From sequence record PV730300.1: DNA of 64,000 nucleotides; one strand, given 5' to 3'. Source of the stretch: a phage. Position numbers and translations under genes: made by a program. How positions within the stretch are numbered: position 1 is the stretch's first letter; every line of letters starts with the position of its first letter. The notes below the pieces were generated by a model. The model ran no database searches, was not told where the DNA came from, and saw only the letters and a list, made by a program, of their open reading frames with translations. Shown here in pieces: positions 33,338-64,000 of the stretch.

Positions 33338-33340
33338 AAC

Positions 33341-33934: not shown

Positions 33935-33948
33935 TGTTTTTCTCCTTA

Positions 33949-34386: not shown

Positions 34387-34573
34387 ATTTGCTTTCCTCA
34401 TTTTGACTATTAATACACCTGTGTTTGAAATCTCCAGAGAAGCAATAAAGTTGCTCTCCATCTCGGTATAAACTCACTTTACTGCCGTTGATTACGCTTG
34501 TCAATACAAAAATTACAACAAACAACCCTATTGCAAAACAAATATTTTCAAACACAACCAACAAGTATTTCAT
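34328..34573 (-). CDS. small membrane protein (81 aa)
   Basis: One hydrophobic helix; overlaps the lipoprotein gene start. Confidence 0.3.
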   Translation of the reverse strand: MKYLLVVFENICFAIGLFVVIFVLTSVINGSKVSLYRDGEQLYCFSGDFKHRCINSQNEESKYEKTSTDFNWLYLFNSLRG

Positions 34574-34920: not shown

Positions 34921-34962
34921 AAGTCTCTCCTATAAAATAGCCTCCCGAAGGAGGCTCATCTA

Positions 34963-35937
34963 TTAAACAGCAGCTTCTTCTTTTTCAGGGAAGATAAAGC
35001 TTGCAATAACACCCAGAGCTAATGTGCCTAGAACAATCATCAGACTTACGTTAGGGGAAATATCATGCGGGAGGAATGACCACTTGGCATGAAGTGTTTC
35101 ACCGAACGGGTGATACATAAGTTTAGCACCAACAAACACCAGAACCACAGCAACAGCTTTCTCTAAGTGAACCAGATATTTCACAGCTACACTCAACACA
35201 AAGAAAAGTGCACGTAAACCAAGAACAGCCATCAGCATTGCAGAATAAACTAGCAGAGGTTCTTGTGTCACACCGATCACAGCCGGAACTGAATCAAAAG
35301 AGAAGACAATATCTGTAAGCTCAATAACAAACACACAAAGAAGAGCAGGAGTTGCATATTTAATACCATTCTTAATGGTGATGAACTTTTCACCATCCAG
35401 CGCATTGTGCACAGGCAGAACTTTACCTACTAAACGAACAGCCCAATGCTTAGAGTAATCAATATCCTCTTCTTCGTCACCACCTTTGATGATAGCCACG
35501 GCAGACCAAGCTACAATCAAACCGAACAACACTTGGACCGACCAATGAAGGTTAAACAAAGCGGTCCCTGCTGCAACAAAAATACCTCGGAAGACAATGG
35601 CTCCTGCAATCCCCCAAAGTAAAATCTTATGTTGGAGATGTGTACTCTTAATTCCAAAGCTTGCAAAAATTGCCATGAACACCATCAGGTTATCTACAGA
35701 AAGACTCTTTTCCAACACATAGCCACTTAAGAAAAGCGCGGCAAACTCTTTACCATGTTCTACCCAAATGAATGCGTAATATCCTAAAGCTAAAGCAATC
35801 CAAAAAACAGACCAAAGCAAAGCAGATTTAATTCCAATTTCTTTATTCTCTTTATGACCAAAGAAATCGATACCAATAGACAATGCCAAAATACCAACTA
35901 AAACAACTACATCAATAATTGGGAAACCGAGTTGCAT
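34963..35937 (-). CDS. TerC-family integral membrane protein (324 aa)
   Basis: Multiple transmembrane segments and the TerC-type EKSLSVDNLMVF motif; preceded by an early-type promoter-hairpin cassette. Confidence 0.75.
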   Translation of the reverse strand: MQLGFPIIDVVVLVGILALSIGIDFFGHKENKEIGIKSALLWSVFWIALALGYYAFIWVEHGKEFAALFLSGYVLEKSLSVDNLMVFMAIFASFGIKSTHLQHKILLWGIAGAIVFRGIFVAAGTALFNLHWSVQVLFGLIVAWSAVAIIKGGDEEEDIDYSKHWAVRLVGKVLPVHNALDGEKFITIKNGIKYATPALLCVFVIELTDIVFSFDSVPAVIGVTQEPLLVYSAMLMAVLGLRALFFVLSVAVKYLVHLEKAVAVVLVFVGAKLMYHPFGETLHAKWSFLPHDISPNVSLMIVLGTLALGVIASFIFPEKEEAAV

Positions 35938-36013
35938 TCTTTTCTCCTCTCTTTGCGGGGAACTATTCCCCGCTTCATGTGATATATCTTACTCTTTTTA
36001 AGAACTGTGTCAA
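35938..36013 (-). promoter_or_regulatory. early-type promoter-hairpin-RBS cassette driving the TerC gene
   Basis: On minus strand: TTGACA, 16-nt spacer, TAAGAT, ATATCACAT, GCGGGGAA-tag-TTCCCCGC hairpin, AAAGAGAGGAGAAAAGA, ATG; same layout as the 57.6-64 kb cassettes. Confidence 0.6.
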
Positions 36014-36016
36014 CAC

Positions 36017-36238
36017 TTATTTTGTTGAATGAGAGGAAAAGATTCCTCGTAATACCGCCAGAATAAACGAAACACAAACCACGGTCCAGAAGGTTACTGG
36101 GACAGTGATATCTGCATGACCCATAACTTCAGCAACATAGTTGTAAGCCAGCAACAGTAACCAAGCTGGAATCAAACTAAGCATAAAAGCAATAACAAAA
36201 AAGCTTACCACTGCAACAATACCTGCAAAAACACCCAT
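36017..36238 (-). CDS. small membrane protein (73 aa)
   Basis: Two hydrophobic helices. Confidence 0.4.
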   Translation of the reverse strand: MGVFAGIVAVVSFFVIAFMLSLIPAWLLLLAYNYVAEVMGHADITVPVTFWTVVCVSFILAVLRGIFSSHSTK

Positions 36239-36250
36239 ACTAATCTCCTC

Positions 36251-36724
36251 TTAAAGTTTATAAATAGTTACATCGTGACCTGTTTTTACTAAAGTTTCTT
36301 CAATCATCACTTGGATGATAGCCCAATTACCTCCAGCATATCCAGCGCCAATCATAGGTAAGCCGATCTTACATTTTTGGTCACGGAGAAGCAAATCATT
36401 AGCCATAGCTATTAGTGCATCGTAAAGTGCATCATAGTCCAACTGACGACCTTTAGCATTGTATCCGTAACGGTATTGCCCGTATAGATTATATACCAAA
36501 GGGTCTGATTGTTCGTCTGGCACCCCTAAACTAAAAGAACCTAACTTACTTTGATCACCAGCCATTGTGTCTAAATCTGCCGCATATGCATAAGGGAATG
36601 CTCGTTTAATTTGCGGAGCAATTCCTGCTCCCATGTTACACATACAATTGCAACAATGAGCAATAACAGTTACTTCACCTGCTTTAGCGGCATCAATAAG
36701 ATTACCTGTTTTCGTTTTAAGCAT
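36251..36724 (-). CDS. macrodomain protein, TARG1/OARD1-like (157 aa)
   Basis: IAHCCNCMCNMGAGIA and C-terminal IGLPMIGAGYAGGNW...DVTIYKL align by eye with TARG1 (LAHCISEDCRMGAGIA ... LSMPRIGCGLDRLQW...DIKITVYTL). Confidence 0.6.
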   Translation of the reverse strand: MLKTKTGNLIDAAKAGEVTVIAHCCNCMCNMGAGIAPQIKRAFPYAYAADLDTMAGDQSKLGSFSLGVPDEQSDPLVYNLYGQYRYGYNAKGRQLDYDALYDALIAMANDLLLRDQKCKIGLPMIGAGYAGGNWAIIQVMIEETLVKTGHDVTIYKL

Positions 36725-36736
36725 TTTAGCTCCTTA

Positions 36737-37564
36737 TTACAGAATGTGTTGTTTTGTGTAACGATCCAAGAATTCAAAGTTTTCAGCATACTTTGAAATT
36801 CGGTTGTAACCTTCTCCCAAGCATCCAAAGAAAAGTTGCTCTACATAGTAGTGTGGCAATTGACTAAGAATGATTTTGAAGTCTTCATGATTTTGGCCCA
36901 TAAGATATTTAATAGGACGAACAAGACACTGTGCATCACGTTCTTCATTAATCATTTTAACAAATGCTTCTGGTGTATTAATGTAGTTAAAATTCAGTTT
37001 AGCTTCGGTATCTGCTTGATTACCTTCATATTTTGCAAAATACAGGAAGTAAACATCATTTTTAACTTGATTTTCATCAAGAATCTCAATCAGTTTGTCT
37101 TCATGCGTTCCAGTGATATTTACATCATCAATGAATACAAGCTTCTTATCACCCCAGAATTCTTTGTTGCAGTAGAATGTATCCCCATCAATAAGTTTCT
37201 TACGACTAGCTTTATCCAAGAAACCATAATCGTTGATATAGCTAACTTTACGATGAATAATGTCCAGTTCTGCTGAACGACCTTGATCATATTGTGATTG
37301 CAACATGTTAAAGTAATTAATAAAATGATCTGTCATCATTGTTGCAGCATTATGCACATGGTTGTAAGGAGAAGGAATGATAACAAATTGTTCCCCAATA
37401 TGTTTCATTGCCACTTGAGCAAAAAACTGAAGTGCCAATTCTTTACCCATACGACGCGCGGCTTGGTTACTACCAAATTTCAATTTTGAATAATCTTGGA
37501 TATCAAAAGTAGCAGTTTCCAGGTCATCAAATTTATTTGCAAAAATTTGAGTTTGATTACGCAT
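36737..37564 (-). CDS. phosphoribosyltransferase-domain protein (275 aa)
   Basis: KLVFIDDVNITGTHED resembles the PRPP-binding motif of type I PRTases. Confidence 0.55.
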   Translation of the reverse strand: MRNQTQIFANKFDDLETATFDIQDYSKLKFGSNQAARRMGKELALQFFAQVAMKHIGEQFVIIPSPYNHVHNAATMMTDHFINYFNMLQSQYDQGRSAELDIIHRKVSYINDYGFLDKASRKKLIDGDTFYCNKEFWGDKKLVFIDDVNITGTHEDKLIEILDENQVKNDVYFLYFAKYEGNQADTEAKLNFNYINTPEAFVKMINEERDAQCLVRPIKYLMGQNHEDFKIILSQLPHYYVEQLFFGCLGEGYNRISKYAENFEFLDRYTKQHIL

Positions 37565-38213: not shown

Positions 38214-38214
38214 A

Positions 38215-38835: not shown

Positions 38836-39027
38836 TTAAAATGGAAGTCTTTGAAGTTCATCTCCTCCGATATCAAGTAATTTAGCAACATCTTGATCAG
38901 AAAGCAACTCTTTTCTTTGTAAAATATCTACAAGGGTTGCAAGAATGTCCTTAACGTCCCGATCACTGTTCTTCAAAAGTTCTCCTGCCGTCCCTACTCT
39001 ATCTCCTACAGCAAAATATGTAACCAT
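38836..39027 (-). CDS. small hypothetical protein (63 aa, start at internal ATG)
   Basis: AGGAGG RBS before internal ATG; longer form would overlap nrdG. Confidence 0.35.
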   Translation of the reverse strand: MVTYFAVGDRVGTAGELLKNSDRDVKDILATLVDILQRKELLSDQDVAKLLDIGGDELQRLPF

Positions 39028-39040
39028 GAAACCTCCTAAG

Positions 39041-39511
39041 TTAATCTGATTGCCAACCACTTGCCGTTTTGGTCCATAATCTTTGATTATCTGACCCTCT
39101 GAAAGGTTTTGTAGTTGGATTGTTTATTTCATACTTTCCGTCTACAATAATGTCAACAAGATTTTTAATATACAAAGGCACTTCCTCAAAAGTATATCCT
39201 GTATACACCATTATATCTTTGCTTGACCCATAAACATCTCTAACCTTTTCTATAAGGTTTTTAACATTGTAAATATTCTGCGGATCTAATGGCTCTCCTC
39301 CTAAAATTGTTAAACCTTTTACAAACGGTCTTGACAAATCTTTTAAAACTTGCTCTACATTTTCGTGAGTAAACGGTTTCCCATAAGAATAAGACCAGGC
39401 TTTTTGGTTAAAACAGCCACGACAACCGTGGCTACAACCACTAACCCAGAGGGAGCACCTAACTCCCTCACCATTAATAAGATCTACAGGTTCGTATCCT
39501 GCAAAATTCAA
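39041..39511 (-). CDS. nrdG: anaerobic ribonucleotide reductase activating protein (radical SAM)
   Basis: CSLWVSGCSHGCRGC (CxxxCxxC-type cluster) near N-terminus; size and position next to nrdD. Confidence 0.85.
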   Translation of the reverse strand: MNFAGYEPVDLINGEGVRCSLWVSGCSHGCRGCFNQKAWSYSYGKPFTHENVEQVLKDLSRPFVKGLTILGGEPLDPQNIYNVKNLIEKVRDVYGSSKDIMVYTGYTFEEVPLYIKNLVDIIVDGKYEINNPTTKPFRGSDNQRLWTKTASGWQSD

Positions 39512-43583: not shown

Positions 43584-45176
43584 TTAACGATCCTCTCTGA
43601 TTTGATTAATCTTACGAGCAAGGGCAGCTATAAGCTTATCTTCTTCAGATACAGGAGCCGTGCTCTTACCTAAACGATGCATGTCTAAAATCTCTTGAAC
43701 AGTCCGGTTCCATTGCAGACATTTAATACAACGTGTATGTGCAACATACAGAAGATTTCGTTCTGATTCTTCAAGACCTACCCACTCACCCTTCTTATCA
43801 TAATTAGAAGGGAAGTCATTTGCAACAATAACCTGATCCCATTCCAAACCTTTTGATTTGTGGGCTGTAGTTAAAGTAACTTTAGCCGTTGGAGAGTTAC
43901 GGTGCATACGTAAAGTGTATGCAATATTATTAGCTTTACCAGAAACAACAATGTTTAAAAGTCGTTTTGCATCAGGATCTGATTCTGCACACTCTACAAA
44001 TTCTTCCCAAGAAGTGTAAGGGAGAACTGTCTCATGCTTAACTTTGTCCAAATCACCTCTACGTAAAGCATTAACACTATCAACCATAGAAATGAAATCT
44101 TTGGTATCTACGTTAATAATAATCTCTTCTCCGTTAGCGATTCGGTCCATAGCTTCGAGCAACAGAGTCAAATTCTTACGGAAAATAATGGTGTAAGGTT
44201 TACTATAATCTACCACATCAGAATGAAAACTTCCAGTGACAGTATCATAACCTTTGCCTACCAGCGGATGCTTCAGAGGTGAGCGATCAGAAAGGATCGC
44301 ATTAGCAATGTCCGCAACTTTAGGACCAAAGCGAAAACAAGCTGTCAGAGGCAACTCAACCCCATATGTAGCCGTTTGCTTCATCATGTTCTGGCTTCCA
44401 CGGAACTGATAAATACTCTGAAACTCATCACCCACAACAACAATACGTTTAGCCGATTTAGCATTGCGAAGGATAGACAGGAATGCAGGGTTAACATCCT
44501 GGAATTCATCTCCAAAAATAATATCGTATCCTAAATCTTCTTTACTCAATTCAAAGAGTTTCACATAGGTGTCATGAGTCATAATGGTTTCTGATTTAGG
44601 ATCAATACGCTCCCGCCAAAGTTGCTTCGCATATTTAACAACTTCGTTAATAAGTTTTTGTTCGTTGATGTTCTTACGTTTAAGATCTGACATATGCACT
44701 TTAGGAAAATGTTTATGTCCAATATGTTCATCGTCAGAAAACTCGTATTTAGCTAAAGTTTGTTTTACCATTAACCCGATCATTGCACGAGTCAGTAGCA
44801 CTTTACCATTCTTATCGATCAAGTTCTGAATCTTGAATTTTTTAGCAATCTCACTACCAGTTCCAGCTACGTTAACATATTGACCTTCTGGACGAGACAA
44901 TTTGTGTCGAAGGTTTTGTGGAAGACGCTGGTAGCAGATAGAATGTAGCGTTCGGCACATAACATTAGGCGGCATTTTACGTCGAGCTTCCTCTGCCATA
45001 CTTTTGTTAAACGCCAAGTATAGAATACTATCATTTGTGCCATTAGCCAACATATACAGTGTTGACGTTTTACCTGATCCAGATTTAGCTTGAATTGTAA
45101 CGAAACGATTTTCTTTATACCCGCTTTCAATAGCGTATTGTTCCTCGGTAGGTGTAAAACTCAATTGTGTAGACAC
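43584..45176 (-). CDS. superfamily-1 DNA helicase, UvrD/Dda-like (530 aa)
   Basis: Walker A AKSGSGKTS; GDEFQD; VVVGDEFQSIY; C-terminal TTAHKSKGLEWDQV and YVAHTRC motifs. Confidence 0.8.
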   Translation of the reverse strand: MSTQLSFTPTEEQYAIESGYKENRFVTIQAKSGSGKTSTLYMLANGTNDSILYLAFNKSMAEEARRKMPPNVMCRTLHSICYQRLPQNLRHKLSRPEGQYVNVAGTGSEIAKKFKIQNLIDKNGKVLLTRAMIGLMVKQTLAKYEFSDDEHIGHKHFPKVHMSDLKRKNINEQKLINEVVKYAKQLWRERIDPKSETIMTHDTYVKLFELSKEDLGYDIIFGDEFQDVNPAFLSILRNAKSAKRIVVVGDEFQSIYQFRGSQNMMKQTATYGVELPLTACFRFGPKVADIANAILSDRSPLKHPLVGKGYDTVTGSFHSDVVDYSKPYTIIFRKNLTLLLEAMDRIANGEEIIINVDTKDFISMVDSVNALRRGDLDKVKHETVLPYTSWEEFVECAESDPDAKRLLNIVVSGKANNIAYTLRMHRNSPTAKVTLTTAHKSKGLEWDQVIVANDFPSNYDKKGEWVGLEESERNLLYVAHTRCIKCLQWNRTVQEILDMHRLGKSTAPVSEEDKLIAALARKINQIREDR

Positions 45177-50277: not shown

Positions 50278-50336
50278 ATCTTAACAAGATTAAAAAGTAT
50301 GTCAATACTTGATCTGAAATTATTTTCAGGTATCAT
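50278..50336. promoter_or_regulatory. divergent back-to-back sigma70-like promoters
   Basis: Minus strand: TTGACA-16-TAAGAT (same type as the early cassettes); plus strand: TTGATC-16-TATCAT; the two -35 boxes are a few bp apart. Confidence 0.5.
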
Positions 50337-52087: not shown

Positions 52088-52100
52088 GAGGAGAAAGAAT

Positions 52101-52265: not shown

Positions 52266-52274
52266 GGAGAGAAT

Positions 52275-56895: not shown

Positions 56896-56935
56896 AAGCC
56901 CGATCCCTGGGCTTGTCAAGATTATTTTTTGTTTT
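56896..56935. terminator. bidirectional hairpin terminator in GC-rich block
   Basis: AAGCCC-gatccctg-GGGCTT hairpin; T-run downstream on plus strand, TGTTTT downstream on minus strand after the stop of 56922-57188. Confidence 0.4.
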
Positions 56936-57188
56936 CTTGCCAGGATAAGACACCTAACCAAAAATGCATATCGCCCCGCGCCCCTGGTGGGATCTTGCTT
57001 TCCCCGCCGCCACTGCAAGCCCATAAATAACCATCAGCGAACGGATCAAAGTTTTCTATCTCTTCCACCTTATGATCGCCCAGGTTGAGAACGGTTTCAA
57101 CCTTTAAGCCCGTTGCGCTTGCTACCTGGTGCACCGTGCCGCCTTGCCAGCCCAATGAGTGCATAAGGTGTAATGTAGTATTTGTCAT
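56922..57188 (-). CDS. small hypothetical protein (88 aa), divergent from the early array
   Basis: Coherent GC-rich codon usage; upstream TTGCTG-17-TATCAT, then GCGCC...GGCGC hairpin and AAAGGG RBS, a diverged version of the early cassette. Confidence 0.4.
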   Translation of the reverse strand: MTNTTLHLMHSLGWQGGTVHQVASATGLKVETVLNLGDHKVEEIENFDPFADGYLWACSGGGESKIPPGARGDMHFWLGVLSWQENKK

Positions 57189-57665: not shown

Positions 57666-57746
57666 TTGACAACGTTTTTTAATCTGATAAGATGTATCAC
57701 ATAGGGCGGGAAATGGTTTCCCGCCCACAATAGAAGAGAAATCATC
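57666..57746 (+). promoter_or_regulatory. early promoter-hairpin-RBS cassette 1
   Basis: TTGACA-16-TAAGAT, GTATCACAT, GGGCGGGAAA-tgg-TTTCCCGCCC hairpin, AGAAGAGAAATC, ATG. Confidence 0.65.
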
Positions 57747-57899
57747 ATGGCATCATATAGCGCAACAATGATCGTAGCTGGCATCACTGGTAAACCTATG
57801 AGCGGTGGCGGATCTTTCGCTAATATCAATATCGACGGACGTTTATCCCTGGACGCAGCGATCGCCATTGCACGGGATACATTCAAAAAAAGAATGTAA
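57747..57899 (+). CDS. early small protein (50 aa as written; probably continues to 58020 in the +1 frame)
   Basis: ATG defined by cassette 1; ends just after an A7 run (57885-57891); +1 frame stays open to 58020, immediately before the next cassette. Confidence 0.45.
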   Translation: MASYSATMIVAGITGKPMSGGGSFANINIDGRLSLDAAIAIARDTFKKRM

Positions 57900-58023
57900 A
57901 TTCAACAAACAAAATTATCTCGGTTTTGCTATTGAAAAAACCGCGCGTTTTGTGGATTATAAAAGCCCGAAAATGGTTGATACTACACTAAAAGCGCAAG
58001 ATGTAGCGTTTTTGCTTTAAGGC

Positions 58024-58096
58024 TTGACGCTAACGAATAATTTGTTAATATGTTACATAACGCGGGAATAGTTCCCGCTGTTTGTAAGGTGATACA
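58024..58096 (+). promoter_or_regulatory. early promoter-hairpin-RBS cassette 2 (diverged)
   Basis: TTGACG-16-TAATAT, GTTACATAA, GCGGGAA-tag-TTCCCGC hairpin, ATG. Confidence 0.55.
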
Positions 58097-58354
58097 ATGT
58101 TTTACATCAAATTAAAAGGTCACGTTATCGCGTTCAAGGATAAAGCTTTTTACCGGTTAGCTAAATATGCTTTGATCCATCCTCATTATGTTTACATAAG
58201 GGGGCGCGATGAGATAAATATCTTTGATCAAACAACATGCGAAAACATCGAGATCCGCAAGGTTGGCGTACGTGATTATCGTACATCTTTCTACCCTTGC
58301 AAGGATTCCGCAAGTCTTTTTAAGGTGTGCCGATTATTGAAAAAAGGTGGGTAA
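58097..58354 (+). CDS. early small protein (85 aa)
   Basis: ORF defined by cassette 2. Confidence 0.5.
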   Translation: MFYIKLKGHVIAFKDKAFYRLAKYALIHPHYVYIRGRDEINIFDQTTCENIEIRKVGVRDYRTSFYPCKDSASLFKVCRLLKKGG

Positions 58355-58355
58355 T

Positions 58356-58925
58356 ATGGGCCGCGAATATGTGATCCAAACCTGGGTAAAACATGAAGCA
58401 GATGATCCGCGCATCATTCCCGATCATCTTGTCGATGAATCCACGGGCTATAGCGGGGAGCAAATAGGCAACAGATTAGCACGCAGTAACGGCAACGTAA
58501 AAGCGCGCTATGTGCGCCCTGGTTGGCTGGCGAATGGTACCGCTGATTTATCCAGTGCGGAAGATACGAGCGACGGCGCGAAAGATAATCCCTTGTACAA
58601 AATTGATCCGGCTTTTCGTGTCCTGGATGAATATCCCAGCAAGATAGCGGCGCTCGATCAGGCCCTGGAAAGTAAGCGCATCACCTGGACCGCTTACAAC
58701 ATGGCAAAAAACGTACTTGATGGTAAGCTGATCCAGGCTGAAAGGAAATTAGCCAAAATTGCAGCCATAGCCCAGGAGGAAGACGAGGAAACAACGGAAG
58801 AGGAAGAGTACGAAGAGATCCCGCCGTTGTTGTGTGTTGATGCTTTTCCTGATTATCAACCGACAGAGGAAGAAAAAAGGATCGCCCTAGAAAACTTTGA
58901 AAATATTATTGACAACATTTTTTAA
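58356..58925 (+). CDS. early protein (189 aa), acidic C-terminal region
   Basis: ATG 2 nt after upstream stop with GGTGGG RBS; C-terminal codons (IIDNIF) are the -35 and spacer of the next cassette. Confidence 0.5.
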   Translation: MGREYVIQTWVKHEADDPRIIPDHLVDESTGYSGEQIGNRLARSNGNVKARYVRPGWLANGTADLSSAEDTSDGAKDNPLYKIDPAFRVLDEYPSKIAALDQALESKRITWTAYNMAKNVLDGKLIQAERKLAKIAAIAQEEDEETTEEEEYEEIPPLLCVDAFPDYQPTEEEKRIALENFENIIDNIF

Positions 58926-58991
58926 TCTGATAAGATGTATCACATAGGGCGGCGGAATGGTCCACCGCTCAAAACAGAAGAGAGAAAAATC
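58909..58991 (+). promoter_or_regulatory. early promoter-hairpin-RBS cassette 3
   Basis: TTGACA-16-TAAGAT, GTATCACAT, GGCGG...CCGC hairpin with AATGG loop, AACAGAAGAGAGAAAAATC, ATG. Confidence 0.65.
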
Positions 58992-59237
58992 ATGAAACAC
59001 TTATCATCTATCACCAACCACAATGAAATTTTCGTTAATGAAAAAGGTTTCGCCTGGATTCAGTTAAAAGAGATGAAAAATAACCGTCATGTAACGGTTG
59101 TTCGTAAAATTAAAAGCAAGCCTTTTAGTAACTTCTCGATTGATACCGTGCGGATCAAGAATGAAGAATACTTGATCGATAGTCAAATCACTTGGAGCTT
59201 AACGGCATCAGCCGCCGCGCCATATTTCGCAAACTAA
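58992..59237 (+). CDS. early small protein (81 aa)
   Basis: ATG set by cassette; track ORF starts upstream inside the promoter and is over-extended. Confidence 0.5.
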   Translation: MKHLSSITNHNEIFVNEKGFAWIQLKEMKNNRHVTVVRKIKSKPFSNFSIDTVRIKNEEYLIDSQITWSLTASAAAPYFAN

Positions 59238-59247
59238 GAAAAAACGT

Positions 59248-59327
59248 TTGACACTGTTTAAAGTTCTGTTATAGTTTATCACGTAGGGCGGCAATGGTGC
59301 CGCCAACAATGAAAAAAGGTTATCATC
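59248..59327 (+). promoter_or_regulatory. early promoter-hairpin-RBS cassette 4
   Basis: TTGACA-16-TATAGT, TTATCACGT, GGCGGCA-atgg-TGCCGCC hairpin, AAAAAAGG, ATG. Confidence 0.6.
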
Positions 59328-59693
59328 ATGGCTATTAATATCAATGTTTCCTCTTATGCTACCCTGGCTGACACGGCTAAAATCGAATTATCTAGCATTG
59401 AGGCGGTGCATATTAGCGCCCGCCGCTGGTTTCAAAAGTCTTATGGTAATACTTATTTCTCTTTGATGGTTGACGTTGAGATCGGCGGTAAACTGATCGA
59501 GGTGGTTAACGTTCCGTTTCAATATGGCTATGGTGATCATTTTGATACCGTTGCCCTGGAAGAGTTTAGCAAGGTTGTTAATATGGAAGGTAAAGAGTTT
59601 TCGCGCGGCGCGTATCTTTCCCGTTTTTGCCGTGACAATGGGATCACTGTATACAGTCATGCAAGCGATGTTAAACGTAAAAAAGATCTATAA
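59328..59693 (+). CDS. early protein (121 aa)
   Basis: ORF defined by cassette 4. Confidence 0.5.
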   Translation: MAININVSSYATLADTAKIELSSIEAVHISARRWFQKSYGNTYFSLMVDVEIGGKLIEVVNVPFQYGYGDHFDTVALEEFSKVVNMEGKEFSRGAYLSRFCRDNGITVYSHASDVKRKKDL

Positions 59694-59699
59694 AAAGCA

Positions 59700-59781
59700 T
59701 TGACAGCACGAATAAAAAGAGTAAACTGTATTACATCAAGGCGGCGGAATGGTCCACCGCCTAACAAAGAGAGAAATAAAA
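59700..59781 (+). promoter_or_regulatory. early promoter-hairpin-RBS cassette 5
   Basis: TTGACA-16-TAAACT, GTATTACAT, GGCGG...CCGCC hairpin with AATGG loop, AACAAAGAGAGAAATAAAA, ATG. Confidence 0.6.
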
Positions 59782-59964
59782 ATGGCTAAATGCACTATCT
59801 GCAAAAAAGAAATAGTATTAGTTCCAAGTGCAAGTGAACGCGCCGCGCGTTTCGGTGGGAAAGCGTCAGACTACACGAAAATGTTTACTACTCATGCAGA
59901 TTGCCAGGTGGCAAAACGTTCACAAGAAAGCATAGAATTAATGCGTAAACTTTCCAAAAAATAA
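59782..59964 (+). CDS. early small cysteine-containing protein (60 aa)
   Basis: CTIC...HADC; ATG set by cassette. Confidence 0.5.
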   Translation: MAKCTICKKEIVLVPSASERAARFGGKASDYTKMFTTHADCQVAKRSQESIELMRKLSKK

Positions 59965-59966
59965 TA

Positions 59967-60049
59967 TTGACAAAGTATCTTATTACTATATAATGTTTTA
60001 CATAGGGCGCGGGAATAGTTCCCGCCCCACTGAAAAAGAGAGAAAAATC
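59967..60049 (+). promoter_or_regulatory. early promoter-hairpin-RBS cassette 6
   Basis: TTGACA-16-TATAAT, GTTTTACAT, GCGGGAA-tag-TTCCCGC hairpin, AAAAAGAGAGAAAAATC, ATG. Confidence 0.65.
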
Positions 60050-60289
60050 ATGGCTAAATCTAAAATGTACAACGGTCACAAAAACAAAACTCATTGGAAT
60101 GTAAGCCTTTGGATTAATAACGATCCAGGTTTTTATAATATGGCAAAAGAATTTATAGCCGTGAACAACAATAAAGATAACGCCGCGCGTGAAATGATGT
60201 CACTACTTAACGAAATGGGCCAAAATACTACGCCAGATGGCTATAAATTCAGCAAAACCAGTATCCGCGCCGCTATGGTAGGAATGTAA
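60050..60289 (+). CDS. early small protein (79 aa)
   Basis: ATG set by cassette. Confidence 0.5.
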   Translation: MAKSKMYNGHKNKTHWNVSLWINNDPGFYNMAKEFIAVNNNKDNAAREMMSLLNEMGQNTTPDGYKFSKTSIRAAMVGM

Positions 60290-60298
60290 TAAAAGCAG

Positions 60299-60380
60299 TT
60301 GACAACGTTTTTTAATCTGGTAAAGTGTATCACATAGGGCGGGAAATGGTTTCCCGCCAAATGAAAGAAAGGTTATCATT
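60299..60380 (+). promoter_or_regulatory. early promoter-hairpin-RBS cassette 7
   Basis: TTGACA-16-TAAAGT, GTATCACAT, GGCGGGAAA-tgg-TTTCCCGCC hairpin, ATG. Confidence 0.65.
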
Positions 60381-60608
60381 ATGGCTATCGTTATTGTTCG
60401 CGTATCCGGCACGGTTGGAATCTCCCAGGTAGTAGCAGTTATCACCGAGAAGAAAGGGGATGATCTTCACTCCTCCTTGAATAGCTGGGCGGTCGCTAAC
60501 TTTGGGCAATGGTCGAGCGTTGAGTACATCGAATCCTACCAGGTGCCAACGATTAGCCTGACCGATCTCAACGTTGATCGTCTGTTATGCCTGGATGAAT
60601 TAATCTGA
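60381..60608 (+). CDS. early small protein (75 aa)
   Basis: ORF defined by cassette 7. Confidence 0.5.
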   Translation: MAIVIVRVSGTVGISQVVAVITEKKGDDLHSSLNSWAVANFGQWSSVEYIESYQVPTISLTDLNVDRLLCLDELI

Positions 60609-60617
60609 AAAAGATTG

Positions 60618-60698
60618 TTGACACGGGAAAGAAAAAGAGTAAACTGTATTACGTAGGGCGGCAATAGTGCCGCTCATAACAGAAGAGAGATTATCACG
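60618..60698 (+). promoter_or_regulatory. early promoter-hairpin-RBS cassette 8
   Basis: TTGACA-16-TAAACT, GTATTACGT, GGCGGCA-atag-TGCCGC hairpin, AACAGAAGAGAGA, ATG. Confidence 0.6.
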
Positions 60699-60914
60699 AT
60701 GGCTAATATCCGCACACTGTTAAAAAATGCAAAGCAAGTTTTATTTTCAGATGACGAATATTTCAATAAAGACATTACGGGCGTAAAAAATCTTAAAGAT
60801 GTGAAAGATGTGATAGGTATTCGCGGATCTTTACGTAAAGGTGACACATGCGGTAACAAGGTGCAATATAAATTAGATCAGTTTTATGATTTTACTTTGA
60901 CAATTATTTCATAA
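60699..60914 (+). CDS. early small protein (71 aa)
   Basis: ORF defined by cassette 8. Confidence 0.5.
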   Translation: MANIRTLLKNAKQVLFSDDEYFNKDITGVKNLKDVKDVIGIRGSLRKGDTCGNKVQYKLDQFYDFTLTIIS

Positions 60915-60920
60915 AACTAC

Positions 60921-61005
60921 TTGCAAACCTGGTAAAATAAAGTAAACTATATTCATCAAGGCGGTGGAATAGCCCACCGCCTAACAAAGAGAAGAGGAAA
61001 ATATC
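60921..61005 (+). promoter_or_regulatory. early promoter-hairpin-RBS cassette 9
   Basis: TTGCAA-16-TAAACT, TATATTCAT, GGCGGTGG...CCACCGCC hairpin, AACAAAGAGAAGAGGAAAA, ATG. Confidence 0.6.
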
Positions 61006-61176
61006 ATGATCACTTTCGCTACCCGTGAAGCCGCTCGCAACGTTGCACGTAAAGTTAACGCCGCCAACCTGGGCGCTACGCTTAAAGCACCGGTGAAAGA
61101 TGAATCAGGAAAATGGATCTTTCCTGGTCTGCATCACGCTGATAAGCTGGGAACATTAACGCTAAAAAATAAATAA
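61006..61176 (+). CDS. early small protein (56 aa), not in ORF track
   Basis: ATG set by cassette 9; ends 8 nt before the next -35. Confidence 0.45.
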   Translation: MITFATREAARNVARKVNAANLGATLKAPVKDESGKWIFPGLHHADKLGTLTLKNK

Positions 61177-61183
61177 TATCCGC

Positions 61184-61260
61184 TTGACAGTAGCATCATT
61201 TATAAGTAAAGTAACAACAACGGCGGGAAATGGTTTCCCGCTCAAAAAGAGAGAAAAACC
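61184..61260 (+). promoter_or_regulatory. early promoter-hairpin-RBS cassette 10
   Basis: TTGACA-17-TAAAGT, GGCGGGAAA-tgg-TTTCCCGC hairpin, AAAAAGAGAGAAAAACC, ATG. Confidence 0.6.
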
Positions 61261-61614
61261 ATGAAAGCACAAAATGCAATTAAAGAGTACATCCTTGCCG
61301 CTATTGATTATAGCGAGTATGGCATCACGGAAGAGAAAGAGAAGATCGCGGAATTGATGCGCTGTTTTAATTCCGAATACTGGTACCCTGATAATCAAAA
61401 ACGGTACGATCATAGTATTATTAAAGCAATAGCATCATGGTTACAAGGTTTGCCATCAAATATTAATATCGCTTTCGAGTATTGGGAAGTAGATCGGTTG
61501 TTAACATCCTGGGGATACATTACAGAGAATAGCAGAGACGATAAAATCCAACGAGAAAGGGAAAATTATTGGCTTTATATTGCAGGCGTGATCCTTGCTT
61601 GCTCTTATGAATGA
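61261..61614 (+). CDS. early protein (117 aa)
   Basis: ORF defined by cassette 10. Confidence 0.5.
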   Translation: MKAQNAIKEYILAAIDYSEYGITEEKEKIAELMRCFNSEYWYPDNQKRYDHSIIKAIASWLQGLPSNINIAFEYWEVDRLLTSWGYITENSRDDKIQRERENYWLYIAGVILACSYE

Positions 61615-61620
61615 TAAACC

Positions 61621-61693
61621 TTGACAATTTTACAAAACAGTTTAAATTAATAATATAGCGGCAATGGTGCCGCTCATATAAAGAGGAAACAAA
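61621..61693 (+). promoter_or_regulatory. early promoter-hairpin-RBS cassette 11
   Basis: TTGACA, AT-rich -10 region, GCGGCA-atgg-TGCCGC hairpin, AAAGAGGAAAC, ATG. Confidence 0.5.
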
Positions 61694-61840
61694 ATGAATA
61701 CATCTAATCGCGCAGAAAAAATCCAATCTTCCAAGATCCGCAAGGCCTGGAACGAGGAAGTGATCCGCAAAGGCGACAAGCGCAATAAAACAAAGCGCGG
61801 GAAGAGTGACAAATATAATTGGATGGATTTAGAGGATTAA
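61694..61840 (+). CDS. early small basic protein (48 aa), not in ORF track
   Basis: ATG set by cassette 11; followed by a terminator. Confidence 0.45.
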   Translation: MNTSNRAEKIQSSKIRKAWNEEVIRKGDKRNKTKRGKSDKYNWMDLED

Positions 61841-61847
61841 CATAACA

Positions 61848-61874
61848 AGGGCGCAAATAGCGCCCTTTCTTTTT
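61848..61874 (+). terminator. rho-independent terminator inside the early array
   Basis: AGGGCGC-aaata-GCGCCCT hairpin followed by TTCTTTTT. Confidence 0.65.
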
Positions 61875-61895
61875 ACATGCAGAGGATAAACAAAG

Positions 61896-62081
61896 ATGAC
61901 TTTAAACGAGCTTAAAACAGCCTACAACGCAACATTAAAAATAGCCGTGCATTACCGTGATGAATATGGTTTTATCACGCAGGGCGTGATCCTGGGCTTT
62001 TCTGACGATGGTTTGATCTATGTTGATGCACATTATAACAAGGTAAAACCTGAAAACGTCATTAGCATAAAATATCTTTAA
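61896..62081 (+). CDS. early small protein (61 aa)
   Basis: GAGGA RBS; the only array gene with a terminator rather than a cassette upstream. Confidence 0.45.
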   Translation: MTLNELKTAYNATLKIAVHYRDEYGFITQGVILGFSDDGLIYVDAHYNKVKPENVISIKYL

Positions 62082-62087
62082 AAGTGG

Positions 62088-62166
62088 TTGACACCATAAC
62101 CGGACCTGTTAAACTGTATTACATCAGGCGGGGAATAGTTCCCCACCATACAAAAAGGTAAATATT
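62088..62166 (+). promoter_or_regulatory. early promoter-hairpin-RBS cassette 12
   Basis: TTGACA-16-TAAACT, GTATTACAT, GGGGAA-tag-TTCCCC hairpin, AAAAAGG, ATG. Confidence 0.6.
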
Positions 62167-62373
62167 ATGATCACCGCAAAACAAGAGAAAATCATTATCG
62201 ACGTTGCAGCCGTTGCCGCTATTGCTATTATTGGATCTTATTATGATACCCGTTTCCCGTCGGCTATGCATGAGATCGCCGCCGTTGCATCAGTTGGCGT
62301 ACTGTTTTACGTTGGTAAACGCTATTTATCACCAATGATTAACAAGCTGACACCGTGGAAAAATAAAGGTTGA
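62167..62373 (+). CDS. early small membrane protein (68 aa)
   Basis: Hydrophobic helices (IIIDVAAVAAIAIIG, AAVASVGVLFYVG). Confidence 0.5.
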   Translation: MITAKQEKIIIDVAAVAAIAIIGSYYDTRFPSAMHEIAAVASVGVLFYVGKRYLSPMINKLTPWKNKG

Positions 62374-62445
62374 TCCTGTTTTATATTGTGTTATAGTTAT
62401 CGTGTAGGGCGGCAATGGTGCCGCGCCCCCTTTGAGGATGCAATC
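62370..62445 (+). promoter_or_regulatory. early promoter-hairpin-RBS cassette 13 (diverged -35)
   Basis: TTGATC-16-TATAGT, TATCGTGT, GGCGGCA-atgg-TGCCGC hairpin, ATG. Confidence 0.5.
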
Positions 62446-62730
62446 ATGAGTAAAGCTAACACCGTGCTAATGTTTTCCCTGATTAATGATCCCGCTTACT
62501 TGTCCAACATGACGCAGGAGGGTAACACATTAACGGCAACATTCACCAATAAGCTTGACCGAGTGATCATCATCTCACTGAAAACAGTTGGTAAAGGCTT
62601 TTACTCGTTAGCTTATCATTGGATCACTGATACCGATGAGACAAGCCAGGACTATAGCGCCCCATTCCCTGAATCAATGGCGCGGGAGATCATCGCCGCC
62701 GTTGTAAATGATGGTTTGTTTACTGCATAA
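62446..62730 (+). CDS. early protein (94 aa)
   Basis: ATG set by cassette; track ORF over-extended into the promoter. Confidence 0.5.
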   Translation: MSKANTVLMFSLINDPAYLSNMTQEGNTLTATFTNKLDRVIIISLKTVGKGFYSLAYHWITDTDETSQDYSAPFPESMAREIIAAVVNDGLFTA

Positions 62731-62745
62731 AAATTTAGAAAAGGC

Positions 62746-62825
62746 TTGCAATAATTTTGAGATAGTGTATATTTAATTCATAGGGCGGCGGGAATAGTTC
62801 CCAAAGCAAACGAGAGGATTACACG
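62746..62825 (+). promoter_or_regulatory. early promoter-hairpin-RBS cassette 14
   Basis: TTGCAA-16-TATATT, GGGAA-tag-TTCCC hairpin, AACGAGAGGATTACACG, ATG. Confidence 0.5.
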
Positions 62826-62945
62826 ATGAGCAAGTACACAGTAGAATACACGGTAGAAAATCCGGCAGTATCCGAAGGTAAAAAGATGACATTTGCCATC
62901 AGTATAATCGCTTTCGTTGTCACTATCTTATCAATCATCTTATAA
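62826..62945 (+). CDS. early small membrane protein (39 aa), not in ORF track
   Basis: ATG set by cassette 14; C-terminal hydrophobic helix FAISIIAFVVTILSIIL. Confidence 0.4.
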   Translation: MSKYTVEYTVENPAVSEGKKMTFAISIIAFVVTILSIIL

Positions 62946-62955
62946 GGTGCACACC

Positions 62956-63117
62956 ATGAAAACAACAAATATTATCAAAGAGATCGCCCTTGCCGCTGGC
63001 GTTGAGATCGAGGAAGTGATCGCGCTCAATCTTACAGAAAACGATCTGCGCAACTATGAAACGGAAAGCGTGAAAGCGAGCGGCGCGGTCCTGGCATATA
63101 ATCCGGCTAACAAGTAA
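62956..63117 (+). CDS. early small protein (53 aa, start at internal ATG)
   Basis: AAGGTG RBS before ATG at 62956. Confidence 0.4.
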   Translation: MKTTNIIKEIALAAGVEIEEVIALNLTENDLRNYETESVKASGAVLAYNPANK

Positions 63118-63126
63118 GGGCGCAAC

Positions 63127-63333
63127 ATGTTAAGCAATGCAGACAAGAAAAAGATCCAGGCACTGGTAAAGCGTCAACGGTTGGCAAAAAAGGCGGTAAA
63201 AGTTAGTTTGCAACGTGTAATAGACGGAATCATCACAGCAAGCGAACAAGCCGACAACATGCAATATAACAGCAAGCCGCTTAACCTGGTTTGCAGTAGT
63301 CCGGCAAGTAATATTATTTACGCGACACGTTAA
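63127..63333 (+). CDS. early small protein (68 aa)
   Basis: ORF coupled to upstream gene; ends 6 nt before the next -35. Confidence 0.45.
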   Translation: MLSNADKKKIQALVKRQRLAKKAVKVSLQRVIDGIITASEQADNMQYNSKPLNLVCSSPASNIIYATR

Positions 63334-63339
63334 AAAGTA

Positions 63340-63415
63340 TTGACAAGCTGAATCAACCTAATAAGATGTATCACATAGGGGCGACAAGCGCCCCGCCTAA
63401 CAGAGAGATAGAATC
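63340..63415 (+). promoter_or_regulatory. early promoter-hairpin-RBS cassette 15
   Basis: TTGACA-16-TAAGAT, GTATCACAT, GGGGCG-acaa-GCGCCCC hairpin, AACAGAGAGATAGAATC, ATG. Confidence 0.6.
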
Positions 63416-63694
63416 ATGACCATCGCCAAATTATCCGCCGAAGAAATCGAACAAGTGTTAACTACTAACCTGGAACAATGGAAACGTGAGGCAGATATAC
63501 AATCAGCACAACGGCTTAACGAGAAGTTAACACCGGATGATCTGAGTAAGATTATAGATCCTCAATTCTATGAAGATATTCACGACACCGTTTTAAGCGT
63601 CGAGGATGTACTTGATAAGCATTACATTGCTACTGATTTGCAGGTTTACGGGCGTAAAAACTTTATCACTATTCACGACATTTACAATAATTAA
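63416..63694 (+). CDS. early protein (92 aa)
   Basis: ORF defined by cassette 15. Confidence 0.5.
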   Translation: MTIAKLSAEEIEQVLTTNLEQWKREADIQSAQRLNEKLTPDDLSKIIDPQFYEDIHDTVLSVEDVLDKHYIATDLQVYGRKNFITIHDIYNN

Positions 63695-63704
63695 AGGCGC
63701 TAAC

Positions 63705-63815
63705 ATGAATCCGAAAGACATGCAAGCCTGGAAAGGGTATGATGATCTAAGCGCCTTGCGCAATAAGTCCAGCCGTAACCTTAGACGATTGAAAGCAAAG
63801 AAAAAGAAAAAATAG
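63705..63815 (+). CDS. early small basic protein (36 aa, start at internal ATG)
   Basis: ATG after AAAGG; Lys-rich C-terminus; ends 1 nt before the next -35. Confidence 0.35.
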   Translation: MNPKDMQAWKGYDDLSALRNKSSRNLRRLKAKKKKK

Positions 63816-63816
63816 T

Positions 63817-63893
63817 TTGACAAGTCCGCTTAATCTGGTAATATGTATCTTGTAGGGCGGCAATGGTGCCGCTCACAAGAAGAGAGAAAAATC
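63817..63893 (+). promoter_or_regulatory. early promoter-hairpin-RBS cassette 16
   Basis: TTGACA-16-TAATAT, GTATCTTGT, GGCGGCA-atgg-TGCCGC hairpin, AAGAAGAGAGAAAAATC, ATG. Confidence 0.6.
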
Positions 63894-64000
63894 ATGAAAA
63901 TCACAAAAAGCCTAACTAATTATGCAGCACGTCGCGGATTATGTTTAACCGTTGAAAACTTAGGGAAAGAAGACTTTTTGTGTTTTTGGGAGCTTGAAAA
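63894..64000 (+). CDS. early small protein, 3'-truncated by window end
   Basis: ATG set by cassette 16; ORF open to the last base of the window. Confidence 0.45.
   Translation, partial: MKITKSLTNYAARRGLCLTVENLGKEDFLCFWELE

What the first reader, a model, noticed from the sequence alone, without database searches (positions are those of the whole stretch)
35938..36013. Early promoter-hairpin cassette upstream of the TerC gene
The full TTGACA-16-TAAGAT / ATATCACAT / GC-hairpin with TAG loop / AAAGAGAGGAGAAAAGA-ATG unit lies on the minus strand immediately before the TerC gene, tens of kb from the main array. This places at least TerC and downstream genes under the early regulatory logic and supports the cassette behaving as a portable module.
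Basis: seen in the sequence. Interest (0 to 1): 0.5.

Follow-up and report, generated by a model that had tools for sequence, protein, structure and literature searches.

The report
Early promoter–hairpin cassette driving phage TerC
A 79-base gap in front of the TerC membrane-protein gene of a phAPEC8-type E. coli phage holds a full copy of the promoter-plus-hairpin unit that is repeated before the phage's presumed early genes; with a terminator-like hairpin after the gene it makes TerC a self-contained expression module, which is a useful example of a known kind of phage regulatory cassette and not a new mechanism.

Summary
On the minus strand, 36013..35938 reads TTGACA-16-TAAGAT-ATATCACATGAA-GCGGGGAA/TAG/TTCCCCGC-AAAGAGAGGAGAAAAGA, followed by the ATG of a TerC-family gene.

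- **Homology to the array:** the site is a true copy of the ~16 units at 57.6-64 kb. A profile built from the array alone finds it at E=9e-12, and a covariance model built from TerC orthologues alone finds the array.
- **Dispersal:** in the complete genome of the closest relative (EF1-1) it is the only high-scoring copy outside the array. One weak, divergent copy also exists.
- **Host phage:** the window is a Phapecoctavirus (Stephanstirmvirinae).
- **Conservation:** across the subfamily the TerC leader hairpin is kept by compensatory changes (5 of 8 pairs) and has an invariant U-N-G loop. A hairpin plus short U tract follows the TerC stop in every relative examined.
- **Module edges:** DNA homology with distant relatives, and gains or losses of neighbouring genes, stop at these two elements. 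In the array, all eight homology-block boundaries against EF1-1 fall in or at the edge of cassettes.

Best reading: an internal sigma-70 promoter with a 5' leader hairpin that makes TerC an autonomous, probably monocistronic unit. This resembles the PeSL cassettes of T4-like phages but has a fixed hairpin position after the -10. Transcription timing and the hairpin's role are inferred, not shown.

The parts
36014..36023 (-). A-rich tract AAAATAAGTG just upstream of the -35 (UP-element-like). It overlaps the TAA stop (36019-36017) of the upstream 73-aa ORF.
   Evidence: A-rich tracts precede the -35 in the array copies too.
36008..36013 (-). -35 hexamer TTGACA (6 of 6 matches to the sigma-70 consensus).
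35986..35991 (-). -10 hexamer TAAGAT (4 of 6), 16 nt after the -35. The same hexamer and spacing occur in several array units.
   Evidence: Spacing is 16 in 12 of 13 array units listed.
35974..35985 (-). Start-site region ATATCACATGAA. The predicted transcription start is an A at 35980 or 35978 (6th or 8th base after the -10).
   Evidence: Sequence. The start site is inferred from usual sigma-70 spacing, not mapped. The motif (G)TATCACAT is shared with the array.
35955..35973 (-). Leader hairpin: GCGGGGAA (35973-35966), loop TAG (35965-35963), TTCCCCGC (35962-35955). It has 8 pairs and no U tract after it.
   Evidence: Covariation in orthologues: 95.8% of cells paired, 5 of 8 pairs with double changes, 0/500 shuffles reach the score. 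Loop U and G are invariant.
35938..35954 (-). Purine-rich, unstructured leader AAAGAGAGGAGAAAAGA with Shine-Dalgarno AGGAG (35948-35944), 6 nt before the ATG.
34963..35937 (-). TerC-family integral membrane protein gene (324 aa).
   Evidence: Pfam PF03741 at 3e-40. 100% identical to EF1-1 gp212, and 71% to phi92 gp182.
34932..34956 (-). Terminator-like hairpin AGCCTCC-TTCG-GGAGGCT followed by ATTTTAT, 7 nt after the TerC stop.
   Evidence: z=-3.1. Present with changed stems in all ten relatives examined. It is the end point of the DNA homology blocks.
57666..63896 (+). Main array of about 16 homologous cassettes, each before a small ORF. It runs off the end of the window. Context for the finding.
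50278..50305 (-). Early-type promoter TTGACA-16-TAAGAT without the GC hairpin, at the head of the long leftward gene cluster that contains TerC. Context for the finding.
   Evidence: (weak hits) and the sequence.

Best explanation
The site is one copy of a repeated expression cassette of Stephanstirmvirinae phages. The cassette consists of an A-rich tract, a near-consensus sigma-70 promoter with 16-nt spacing, a short start-site region, a 7-10 bp GC-rich hairpin with a U-R-G loop, and an unstructured purine-rich Shine-Dalgarno leader.

Here it acts as an internal promoter inside a long leftward operon. Host RNA polymerase starts about 6-8 nt after TAAGAT, so the TerC mRNA would begin 5-7 nt before the hairpin. 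Together with the terminator-like hairpin just after TerC, this makes TerC an autonomous, mostly monocistronic unit expressed with the same logic as the array genes, which are presumed to be early.

The most likely role of the hairpin is at the RNA level. It would be a 5'-proximal stem-loop that protects the transcript from 5'-end-dependent decay (RppH/RNase E) and keeps the ribosome-binding site free, whatever lies upstream. The repeated cassettes also serve as homology patches at which gene modules are exchanged.

- **Shown:** homology to the array, conservation and covariation of the hairpin, the terminator-like element, and the module boundaries.
- **Inferred:** promoter activity, early timing, the start site, and the stabilising or insulating role.
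For: **Identity.**
- A profile from the array finds the TerC copy at E=9e-12. A covariance model from TerC orthologues finds array copies in three genomes, down to E=6e-11.

**Promoter.**
- TTGACA-16-TAAGAT with an A-rich upstream tract.

**Hairpin under selection.**
- In 9 orthologous TerC leaders, 95.8% of cells pair and 5 of 8 pairs show compensatory double changes. The covariation score is 0.569 against 0.257 in shuffles (0/500 reach it), and slid controls pair at 53-65%.
- Loop bases U and G are invariant. Among 39 cassettes, 35 loops contain U-R-G.

**Geometry suits a 5' leader element.**
- The -10 to stem distance is mostly 10-11 nt. There are 0-3 T in the 8 nt after the stem, so it is not an intrinsic terminator. 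The SD region is unpaired in nearly all folds.

**Autonomous unit.**
- A terminator-like hairpin follows TerC in all ten relatives examined.
- DNA homology with distant relatives runs from inside the cassette (36024/36001/35961) to that hairpin (34939/34926/34911).
- phi92 and Klebsiella phage phi1_175008 carry an extra ORF just upstream of the cassette. The window carries an extra 116-aa ORF just after the terminator-like hairpin.

**Exchange at cassettes.**
- All 8 collinear block boundaries between the window and EF1-1 arrays fall in or at the edge of cassettes.

**Principle of 5' stem-loop stabilisation.**
- Review PMC3997798 and its references 92-95 (ompA, papA; Emory, Bouvet and Belasco 1992).
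Against: - No transcript 5' ends or time-course data exist for this phage group in the searchable literature.
- The -10 matches only 4 of 6.
- With a start at 35980 or 35978, the TerC mRNA would have 5-7 unpaired 5' nucleotides. That is at or beyond the length usually compatible with protection. Array copies would have 2-5.
- Wobble statistics do not show on which strand the hairpin matters. Array stems have 8 G.U against 7 A.C, and fold energies are equal on both strands. Only the TerC orthologues lean to the sense strand (3 G.U, 0 A.C).
- The head-of-operon promoter at 50305 lacks the hairpin, so the hairpin is not obligatory for such promoters.
- Klebsiella phage KP13-16 keeps TerC without any cassette, so the cassette is dispensable there.
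Confidence: 0.6

Rival explanations
1. The cassette matters mainly at the DNA level, as a PeSL-type element. The stem-loop would attenuate transcription arriving from upstream. The conserved 80-bp repeat would be the substrate for homologous or site-specific recombination that moves gene modules. Any effect on the TerC mRNA itself would be secondary.
For: - PeSLs of T4-like phages have the same parts (sigma-70 promoter, G-run/C-run stem-loop, SD). They delimit indels, and also occur in core regions next to accessory genes (PMC2839356; PMC4122927).
- Here, block boundaries fall in or at the edge of cassettes and at the edges of the TerC module.
- Strand of action is unresolved.
- One Klebsiella-phage unit also has a stem-loop between the -35 and -10.
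Against: - No U tract follows the stem in any of 39 copies (0-3 T in 8 nt), so canonical termination is unlikely.
- The TerC copy has stayed in one syntenic place and diverged by compensatory changes. That points to selection on the structure itself, not on sequence identity for recombination.
- In phi92 and the Klebsiella phage, the TerC hairpin no longer resembles the array hairpins of the same genome, so it is a poor recombination partner there.
Confidence: 0.2
2. The hairpin, through its U-R-G loop, is the binding site of a phage or host protein that co-regulates all cassette transcripts. Possible roles are shut-off of early messages, translational control, or nut-like modification of RNA polymerase that would allow read-through of the terminator after TerC.
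For: - Loop U and G stay invariant while 5 of 8 stem pairs changed.
- 35 of 39 loops contain U-R-G.
- The position directly after the promoter is the same in every copy.
- The start-site motif GTATCACAT is conserved in the arrays of two genera.
Against: - No candidate factor was found. ORFs near the array and the small ORF at 38836..39060 that I took for the phi92 gp189 (HTH) counterpart have no informative Pfam or PHROG match.
- No boxA-like sequence lies near the cassettes.
- No Rfam family matches.
- The start-site motif is not kept in the TerC orthologues of phi92 or the Klebsiella phages.
- Shared descent of the copies explains part of the loop conservation.
Confidence: 0.13
3. The inverted repeat and the TATCACAT motif form a double-stranded DNA operator for a repressor that turns the cassette promoters off.
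For: - The motif overlaps the predicted start site and is conserved in the array.
- ATGT-ATC-ACAT is a small palindrome (read directly from the sequence).
Against: - Stem arms vary in sequence and in length (6-11 pairs) and in spacing. That does not fit a fixed dimer site.
- TerC orthologues lose TATCACAT but keep the hairpin.
Confidence: 0.05
4. It is a chance match or a decayed, non-functional remnant of an array unit.
For: None beyond the general abundance of promoter-like hexamers. 33 were found in 30-42 kb against 32 expected.
Against: - E=9e-12 and 94 bits for the full cassette.
- Conserved across genera with covariation.
- It fills exactly the intergenic gap between a stop codon and the TerC ATG.
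Confidence: 0.02

Closest known systems
PeSL (promoter-early stem-loop) cassettes of T4-like phages RB49/phi1, PST/T4 and nt-1/KVP40 (Arbiol et al. 2010, PMC2839356; Comeau et al. 2014, PMC4122927)
   Same: - Intergenic ~80-bp repeats with an A/T-rich tract, a near-consensus sigma-70 promoter, a G-run/C-run stem-loop, an SD and a start codon.
- Clustered before small ORFs of unknown function.
- Occasional copies in core regions next to accessory genes.
- Indel and replacement boundaries between close relatives fall at the cassettes.
   Different: - The phage lineage is different (Stephanstirmvirinae). blastn with an array cassette gave hits only in genomes of this and the rV5 group among the rows shown.
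- The hairpin always lies after the -10, in the transcribed leader. In PeSLs it is mostly between or overlapping the -35 and -10.
- There is no U tract, and terminator activity is untested.
- The loop is conserved (U-R-G).
5'-terminal stabilising stem-loops of E. coli and phage mRNAs: ompA and papA leaders (review PMC3997798), and the phi10 leader of T7 late transcripts (from my own knowledge)
   Same: A stable hairpin within a few nucleotides of the mRNA 5' end, followed by an open ribosome-binding site.
   Different: - The start site here is only predicted.
- The TerC copy would leave 5-7 unpaired nucleotides.
- No half-life data exist.
- Here the element is repeated about 25 times per genome, together with its promoter.
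Morons of lambdoid prophages: a gene with its own promoter and terminator inserted between genes of an operon (Hendrix and colleagues; from my own knowledge)
   Same: Promoter, one accessory gene and a terminator-like hairpin embedded in a longer co-oriented gene cluster. The neighbours differ between relatives.
   Different: - The phage is virulent, so there is no expression from a prophage.
- The unit keeps one syntenic position across the subfamily.
- Its promoter belongs to a repeat family of the same genome.
Lambda nut sites (boxA plus the boxB hairpin just downstream of pL and pR; from my own knowledge)
   Same: A short promoter-proximal RNA hairpin with a conserved loop.
   Different: - No boxA-like sequence and no N-like protein identified.
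- About 25 copies per genome instead of 2.
- The loop is not of the GNRA type.

Membership tests
Array cassette family of this phage (57.6-64 kb) | Full-length similarity to a profile built without the candidate | tested here: met
   nhmmer E=9.2e-12, profile positions 3-83 of 86. The reciprocal covariance model from TerC orthologues finds array copies.
Array cassette family of this phage (57.6-64 kb) | Same order and spacing of parts (-35, 16 nt, -10, 8-12 nt, GC hairpin with U-R-G loop, purine-rich SD, ATG) | tested here: met
Sigma-70 promoter | -35 and -10 hexamers at 16-18 nt spacing | tested here: met
   TTGACA-16-TAAGAT, 10 of 12 matches.
Sigma-70 promoter | Transcription starts there in vivo or in vitro | not testable with these tools
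   No transcript data found.
PeSL cassettes (T4-like phages) | Composite of a sigma-70 early promoter with an AT-rich upstream tract, a GC stem-loop and an SD, in an intergenic gap | tested here: met
   Definition taken from PMC2839356.
PeSL cassettes (T4-like phages) | Cassettes mark insertion, deletion or replacement boundaries between close relatives | tested here: met
   8 of 8 block boundaries lie in or at the edge of cassettes. TerC module edges.
PeSL cassettes (T4-like phages) | The stem-loop acts as a terminator or attenuator of upstream transcription | tested here: inconclusive
   No U tract after any of 39 stems, which argues against canonical termination. Activity itself was not measured.
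PeSL cassettes (T4-like phages) | Stem-loop position is variable, most often between or overlapping the -35 and -10 | tested here: not met
   Here it is always 8-12 nt after the -10. One Klebsiella-phage unit has an additional stem-loop between the hexamers.
PeSL cassettes (T4-like phages) | Formation of mini-circles by recombination between cassettes | not testable with these tools
   Needs inverse PCR on infected cells or virions.
Intrinsic terminator (for the leader hairpin) | GC-rich stem followed by a run of U | tested here: not met
   The stem is followed by AAAGAGAG. There are 0-3 T in 8 nt across the family. Even so, phage Paula's record annotates such hairpins as terminators on the opposite strand.
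Intrinsic terminator (for the hairpin after TerC) | GC-rich stem followed by a run of U | tested here: met
   A 7-bp stem, UUCG loop, then AUUUUAU. U tracts are shorter in some relatives, so efficiency is uncertain.
5'-terminal stabilising stem-loop | Hairpin within a few unpaired nucleotides of the mRNA 5' end | tested here: inconclusive
   Depends on the unmapped start site. Predicted unpaired length is 5-7 nt for TerC and 2-5 nt for most array copies.
Lambda-type nut site | boxA-like sequence next to the hairpin | tested here: not met
   No GCTCTT(T)A near any cassette.
Rfam RNA families | Match to any curated covariance model | tested here: not met
   No hit at gathering score. Only chance-level hits at E up to 10.
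TerC family (for the downstream gene) | Pfam PF03741 above the gathering score | tested here: met
   138.3 bits against 27.8.

The most novel reading that the evidence does not exclude
The leader hairpin with its invariant U-R-G loop may define a post-transcriptional regulon. In that case an unidentified phage or host RNA-binding factor recognises the 5' hairpin of some 25 early messages plus TerC. It would set their lifetime, their translation or their read-through, for example by switching them off at the early-to-middle transition or by shielding them from a phage-stimulated RNase.
Probability: 0.13. Interest if true: 0.7.

Novelty: new variant of a known kind. Interest (0 to 1): 0.38.

Why it matters
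- **Wider occurrence.** Promoter/stem-loop cassettes of the PeSL kind would not be confined to T4-like phages. They also organise the hypervariable early region of phAPEC8/phi92-type phages, which are widely isolated as candidates for therapy.
- **A gene recruited from outside the array.** One such cassette has been recruited to a conserved accessory gene (TerC) in the replication and nucleotide-metabolism cluster.
- **Annotation.** These hairpins are currently left unannotated or called terminators.
- **Engineering.** The cassette plus terminator is a compact, natural, insulated expression unit.
- **Biology of the Ter genes.** TerC appears to be needed on a schedule different from its neighbours.

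The scientific surprise is moderate, because the parts and the evolutionary behaviour are already known from another phage group.

Tried and rejected
- **RNAalifold on the MAFFT alignment of the 16 window copies** gave no structure, because stem lengths differ by indels. I used orthologous TerC leaders of equal length instead.
- **Strand of action.** Sense and antisense fold energies and G.U against A.C counts do not discriminate.
- **Rfam.** Nothing at gathering or permissive thresholds.
- **Candidate trans factors.** The 88-aa ORF beside the array, the small ORF at 38836..39060 that I took for the phi92 gp189 counterpart, and ORFs at the divergent promoter region have no informative Pfam or PHROG hits. 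No Srd-like protein was seen.
- **Leaderless upstream ORF** starting at the ATG in CACATGAAG. It is not conserved in phi92 or the Klebsiella phages, so I rejected it.
- **TerC carrying the cassette as a universal moron.** TerC genes of Grimontviridae, Ounavirinae and Schitoviridae phages have 0-48 nt upstream gaps and no cassette, so I rejected this.
- **Concerted evolution of the TerC hairpin with the array of the same genome.** It is not seen in phi92 or Klebsiella phage phi1_175008.
- **TTGACA-17-TAAAGT at 34504..34476.** It lies inside coding sequence and has no hairpin, so it is not a cassette.
- **Literature.** Searches found no description of this cassette, and no transcriptome, for phAPEC8, phi92 or rV5-type phages.

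Full report
**1. The observation.**
Read on the minus strand, window 36013..35935 is TTGACA / CAGTTCTTAAAAAGAG (16 nt) / TAAGAT / ATATCACAT GAA / GCGGGGAA TAG TTCCCCGC / AAAGAGAGGAGAAAAGA / ATG. The ATG opens a 324-codon ORF (35937..34963) that matches Pfam TerC at 3e-40. The cassette fills the gap between the TAA of a 73-aa ORF (36019-36017) and TerC.

It is not chance:
- A relaxed pattern for the promoter and start-site motif has 5 matches in the window against 0.01 expected.
- A profile built from the 15 array copies alone hits this site over its full length at E=9.2e-12.

**2. What the window is.**
The region is 99.4% identical to Escherichia phage EF1-1 and 98% identical to many phAPEC8-type phages (Phapecoctavirus, subfamily Stephanstirmvirinae). 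TerC lies in a long leftward cluster of nucleotide-metabolism and replication genes. Its neighbours belong to a Ter-type set:
- a ComF-like PRTase and a Macro-domain protein (Pfam);
- a SprT-like protein (Pfam; EF1-1 annotation);
- TelA-like and TerD-like proteins and a VWA protein (EF1-1 annotation).

**3. The family and its distribution.**
The window holds about 16 cassettes on the plus strand between 57.6 and 64 kb, each before a small ORF.

In the complete EF1-1 genome, every profile hit below E=1e-4 other than the TerC copy lies in one cluster spanning the record ends (146,057-147,884 and 1-4,243). A covariance model built only from TerC orthologues (R1) finds the array copies in the window, in EF1-1 and in phi92. 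It adds a single weak, divergent site in EF1-1 at 44364..44280, before gp105; this lies outside the window.

So the TerC copy is the only faithful dispersed copy. An early-type promoter with the same hexamers but no hairpin heads the leftward cluster at 50305..50278.

blastn with one array cassette finds 143 phage records, nearly all Stephanstirmvirinae plus a few rV5-type phages. Rfam has nothing.

**4. Conservation at the TerC locus.**
I collected the TerC upstream region from four IMG/VR contigs and from phi92, Serratia phage KKP_3264, TSP7_1, phiWec181 and Klebsiella phages phi1_175008 and KP13-16.
- All except KP13-16 keep a TTGACa-16-TAnnnT promoter, a 7-8 bp hairpin 9-12 nt later, a purine-rich SD and the ATG.
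- The stems differ between lineages: GCGGGGAA/TTCCCCGC, GCGGAGGA/TCCTCCGC, GGGAGAG/CTCTCCC, GAGGGAG/CTCCCTC and GAGGGGG/CTCCCTC.
- On the ungapped alignment A2, 95.8% of cells pair and 5 of 8 pairs show changes on both sides. The covariation score is 0.569 against 0.257 in shuffles (0/500 reach it), and slid controls pair at only 53-65%.
- The loop U and G are invariant.
- The start-site motif TATCACAT is kept only in phapecoctaviruses.
- KP13-16 has a GTG start 28 nt after a different upstream ORF and no cassette. It is a natural loss, or a lineage that never gained it.
- TerC genes of unrelated phages (Grimontviridae, Ounavirinae, Schitoviridae) have no room for a cassette.

The cassette is therefore a subfamily-specific addition to TerC.

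**5. A terminator-like element and module edges.**
Seven nucleotides after the TerC stop lies AGCCTCC-TTCG-GGAGGCT followed by ATTTTAT. An equivalent hairpin with altered stem and a short U tract follows TerC in all ten relatives.

DNA homology between the window and distant relatives starts inside the cassette (36024, 36001 or 35961). It ends at this hairpin (34939, 34926 or 34911).

At the protein level:
- The 73-aa ORF is orthologous to phi92 gp184. However, phi92 and phi1_175008 carry an extra ORF between it and the cassette.
- The window carries a 116-aa ORF right after the hairpin. phi92 lacks it.
- In phi1_175008 the extra ORF has its own, degraded, cassette.

So promoter-hairpin-TerC-terminator is a conserved island whose two edges are junctions of gene gain and loss.

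**6. Exchange at cassettes in the array.**
EF1-1 is almost identical to the window elsewhere, but its array has a different gene content. The collinear blocks are 52000-58995, 59240-59791, 59994-60370, 61222-62148 and 62405-62725. All eight internal boundaries lie in or at the edge of cassettes, several at the hairpin itself.

Cassettes cover about a fifth of the array, so this would be very unlikely by chance. One caveat applies: similarity between paralogous cassettes lets alignments run into them, so breakpoints cannot be placed more finely than 'in or at the edge of a cassette'.

**7. How it most likely works.**
The hexamers, the 16-nt spacing and the A-rich upstream tract fit a strong host sigma-70 promoter. 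With the usual spacing, transcription would start at A 35980 or A 35978, so the hairpin would begin 5-7 nt into the TerC mRNA. In most array copies it would begin 2-5 nt in.

No copy has a U tract after the stem (0-3 T in 8 nt), so the hairpin is not a canonical terminator. The SD region stays unpaired in the folds.

The best-supported reading is a 5'-proximal leader hairpin that stabilises and insulates the message. The principle is established for the ompA and papA leaders (review PMC3997798).

Three things weaken this reading:
- The start site is not mapped.
- The TerC copy would leave rather many unpaired 5' nucleotides.
- Wobble statistics do not show that the sense strand is the one under selection.

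The conserved U-R-G loop (35 of 39 copies) leaves room for a specific binding factor. I could not identify one.

**8. Comparison with what is known.**
The closest described system is the PeSL (promoter-early stem-loop) cassette of T4-like phages (PMC2839356, PMC4122927). It has the same parts, the same clustering before small ORFs, the same occasional presence next to accessory genes in core regions, and the same role as exchange points.

The differences are:
- the phage lineage;
- the fixed position of the hairpin after the -10, in the transcribed leader, where PeSL stem-loops sit mostly between or over the hexamers;
- the lack of a U tract;
- the conserved loop.

I found no paper describing the element in phAPEC8, phi92 or rV5-type phages. 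The rV5 paper lists 33 sigma-70 promoters only. One GenBank record (phage Paula) labels such hairpins as terminators on the opposite strand.

**9. Verdict.**
- **Observation:** confirmed.
- **Interpretation:** partly supported. The cassette is real, belongs to the array family and behaves as a module edge. It most likely serves TerC alone, it is ancient and fixed in place at this locus, and its 'early' timing is inferred.
- **Novelty:** a new variant of a known kind.
- **Interest:** moderate.

Noticed in passing
window 50278-50305 (-): An early-type promoter TTGACA-16-TAAGAT with an array-like spacer but no GC hairpin, 30 nt before the ATG at 50247. It heads the long leftward cluster that contains TerC.
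   Followed up: partly
window 48746-48889 (-): A 130-nt non-coding gap with AAAATAAGTGTTGACT (the same -35 context as the TerC cassette) and a small hairpin ACCC-CGAA-GGGT. It may be another promoter or a small RNA.
   Followed up: no
window 56333-56542 and 56660-57450: A 72-nt AT-rich direct repeat (two copies, 82% identical) lies in a 1.4-kb non-coding stretch just before the array. Next to it is a GC-rich patch with an 88-aa minus-strand ORF (56922..57188, phrog_19316, function unknown).
   Followed up: partly
L002 (EF1-1) 44280-44364 (-): A divergent promoter + hairpin + SD unit (TTGACT-16-TATAAT, ACTGGGAGGA/TCCTCCCATT) before gp105, just after thymidylate synthase. Model R1 scores it 32.6 bits, E=8e-4. 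It is a second, weak dispersed copy outside the window.
   Followed up: partly
L010 (Klebsiella phage KP13-16) 1463-1492: TerC here starts with GTG 28 nt after an unrelated upstream ORF and has no promoter-hairpin cassette, although the hairpin after TerC is kept. This phage is a natural comparison for testing what the cassette does.
   Followed up: partly
L021 (Klebsiella phage phi1_175008) 8053-8135; L009 1040-1173: One array unit has an extra stem-loop GCGCCC/GGGCGC between the -35 and -10 (the classical PeSL geometry) as well as the downstream hairpin. The ORF inserted upstream of the TerC cassette is preceded by a terminator and a degraded cassette.
   Followed up: partly
L019 (phage Paula, LR865361) 1900-1924 and 2352-2371: The GenBank record annotates the cassette hairpins as 'terminator' on the strand opposite to the genes. 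No U tract supports this call.
   Followed up: partly
window 32747-38820 (-) and EF1-1 gp197-gp217: TerC sits among Ter-type genes: a ComF-like PRTase, a Macro-domain protein, hydrolases, a SprT-like protein, a TelA-like 'tellurite resistance' protein, a VWA protein and a TerD-like 'stress protein'. Together they suggest a phage-borne Ter-related pathway.
   Followed up: no
window 33949-34461 (-): The 170-aa ORF contains an internal start followed by MKKLALILIGCIFLTAC, a lipoprotein-type signal. The real gene probably starts there.
   Followed up: no
hit H120 (Enterococcus phage heks, 562-609): A 47-nt stretch 85% identical to the array cassette in an unrelated Enterococcus phage record. Unexplained; it may be chance or contamination.
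   Followed up: no
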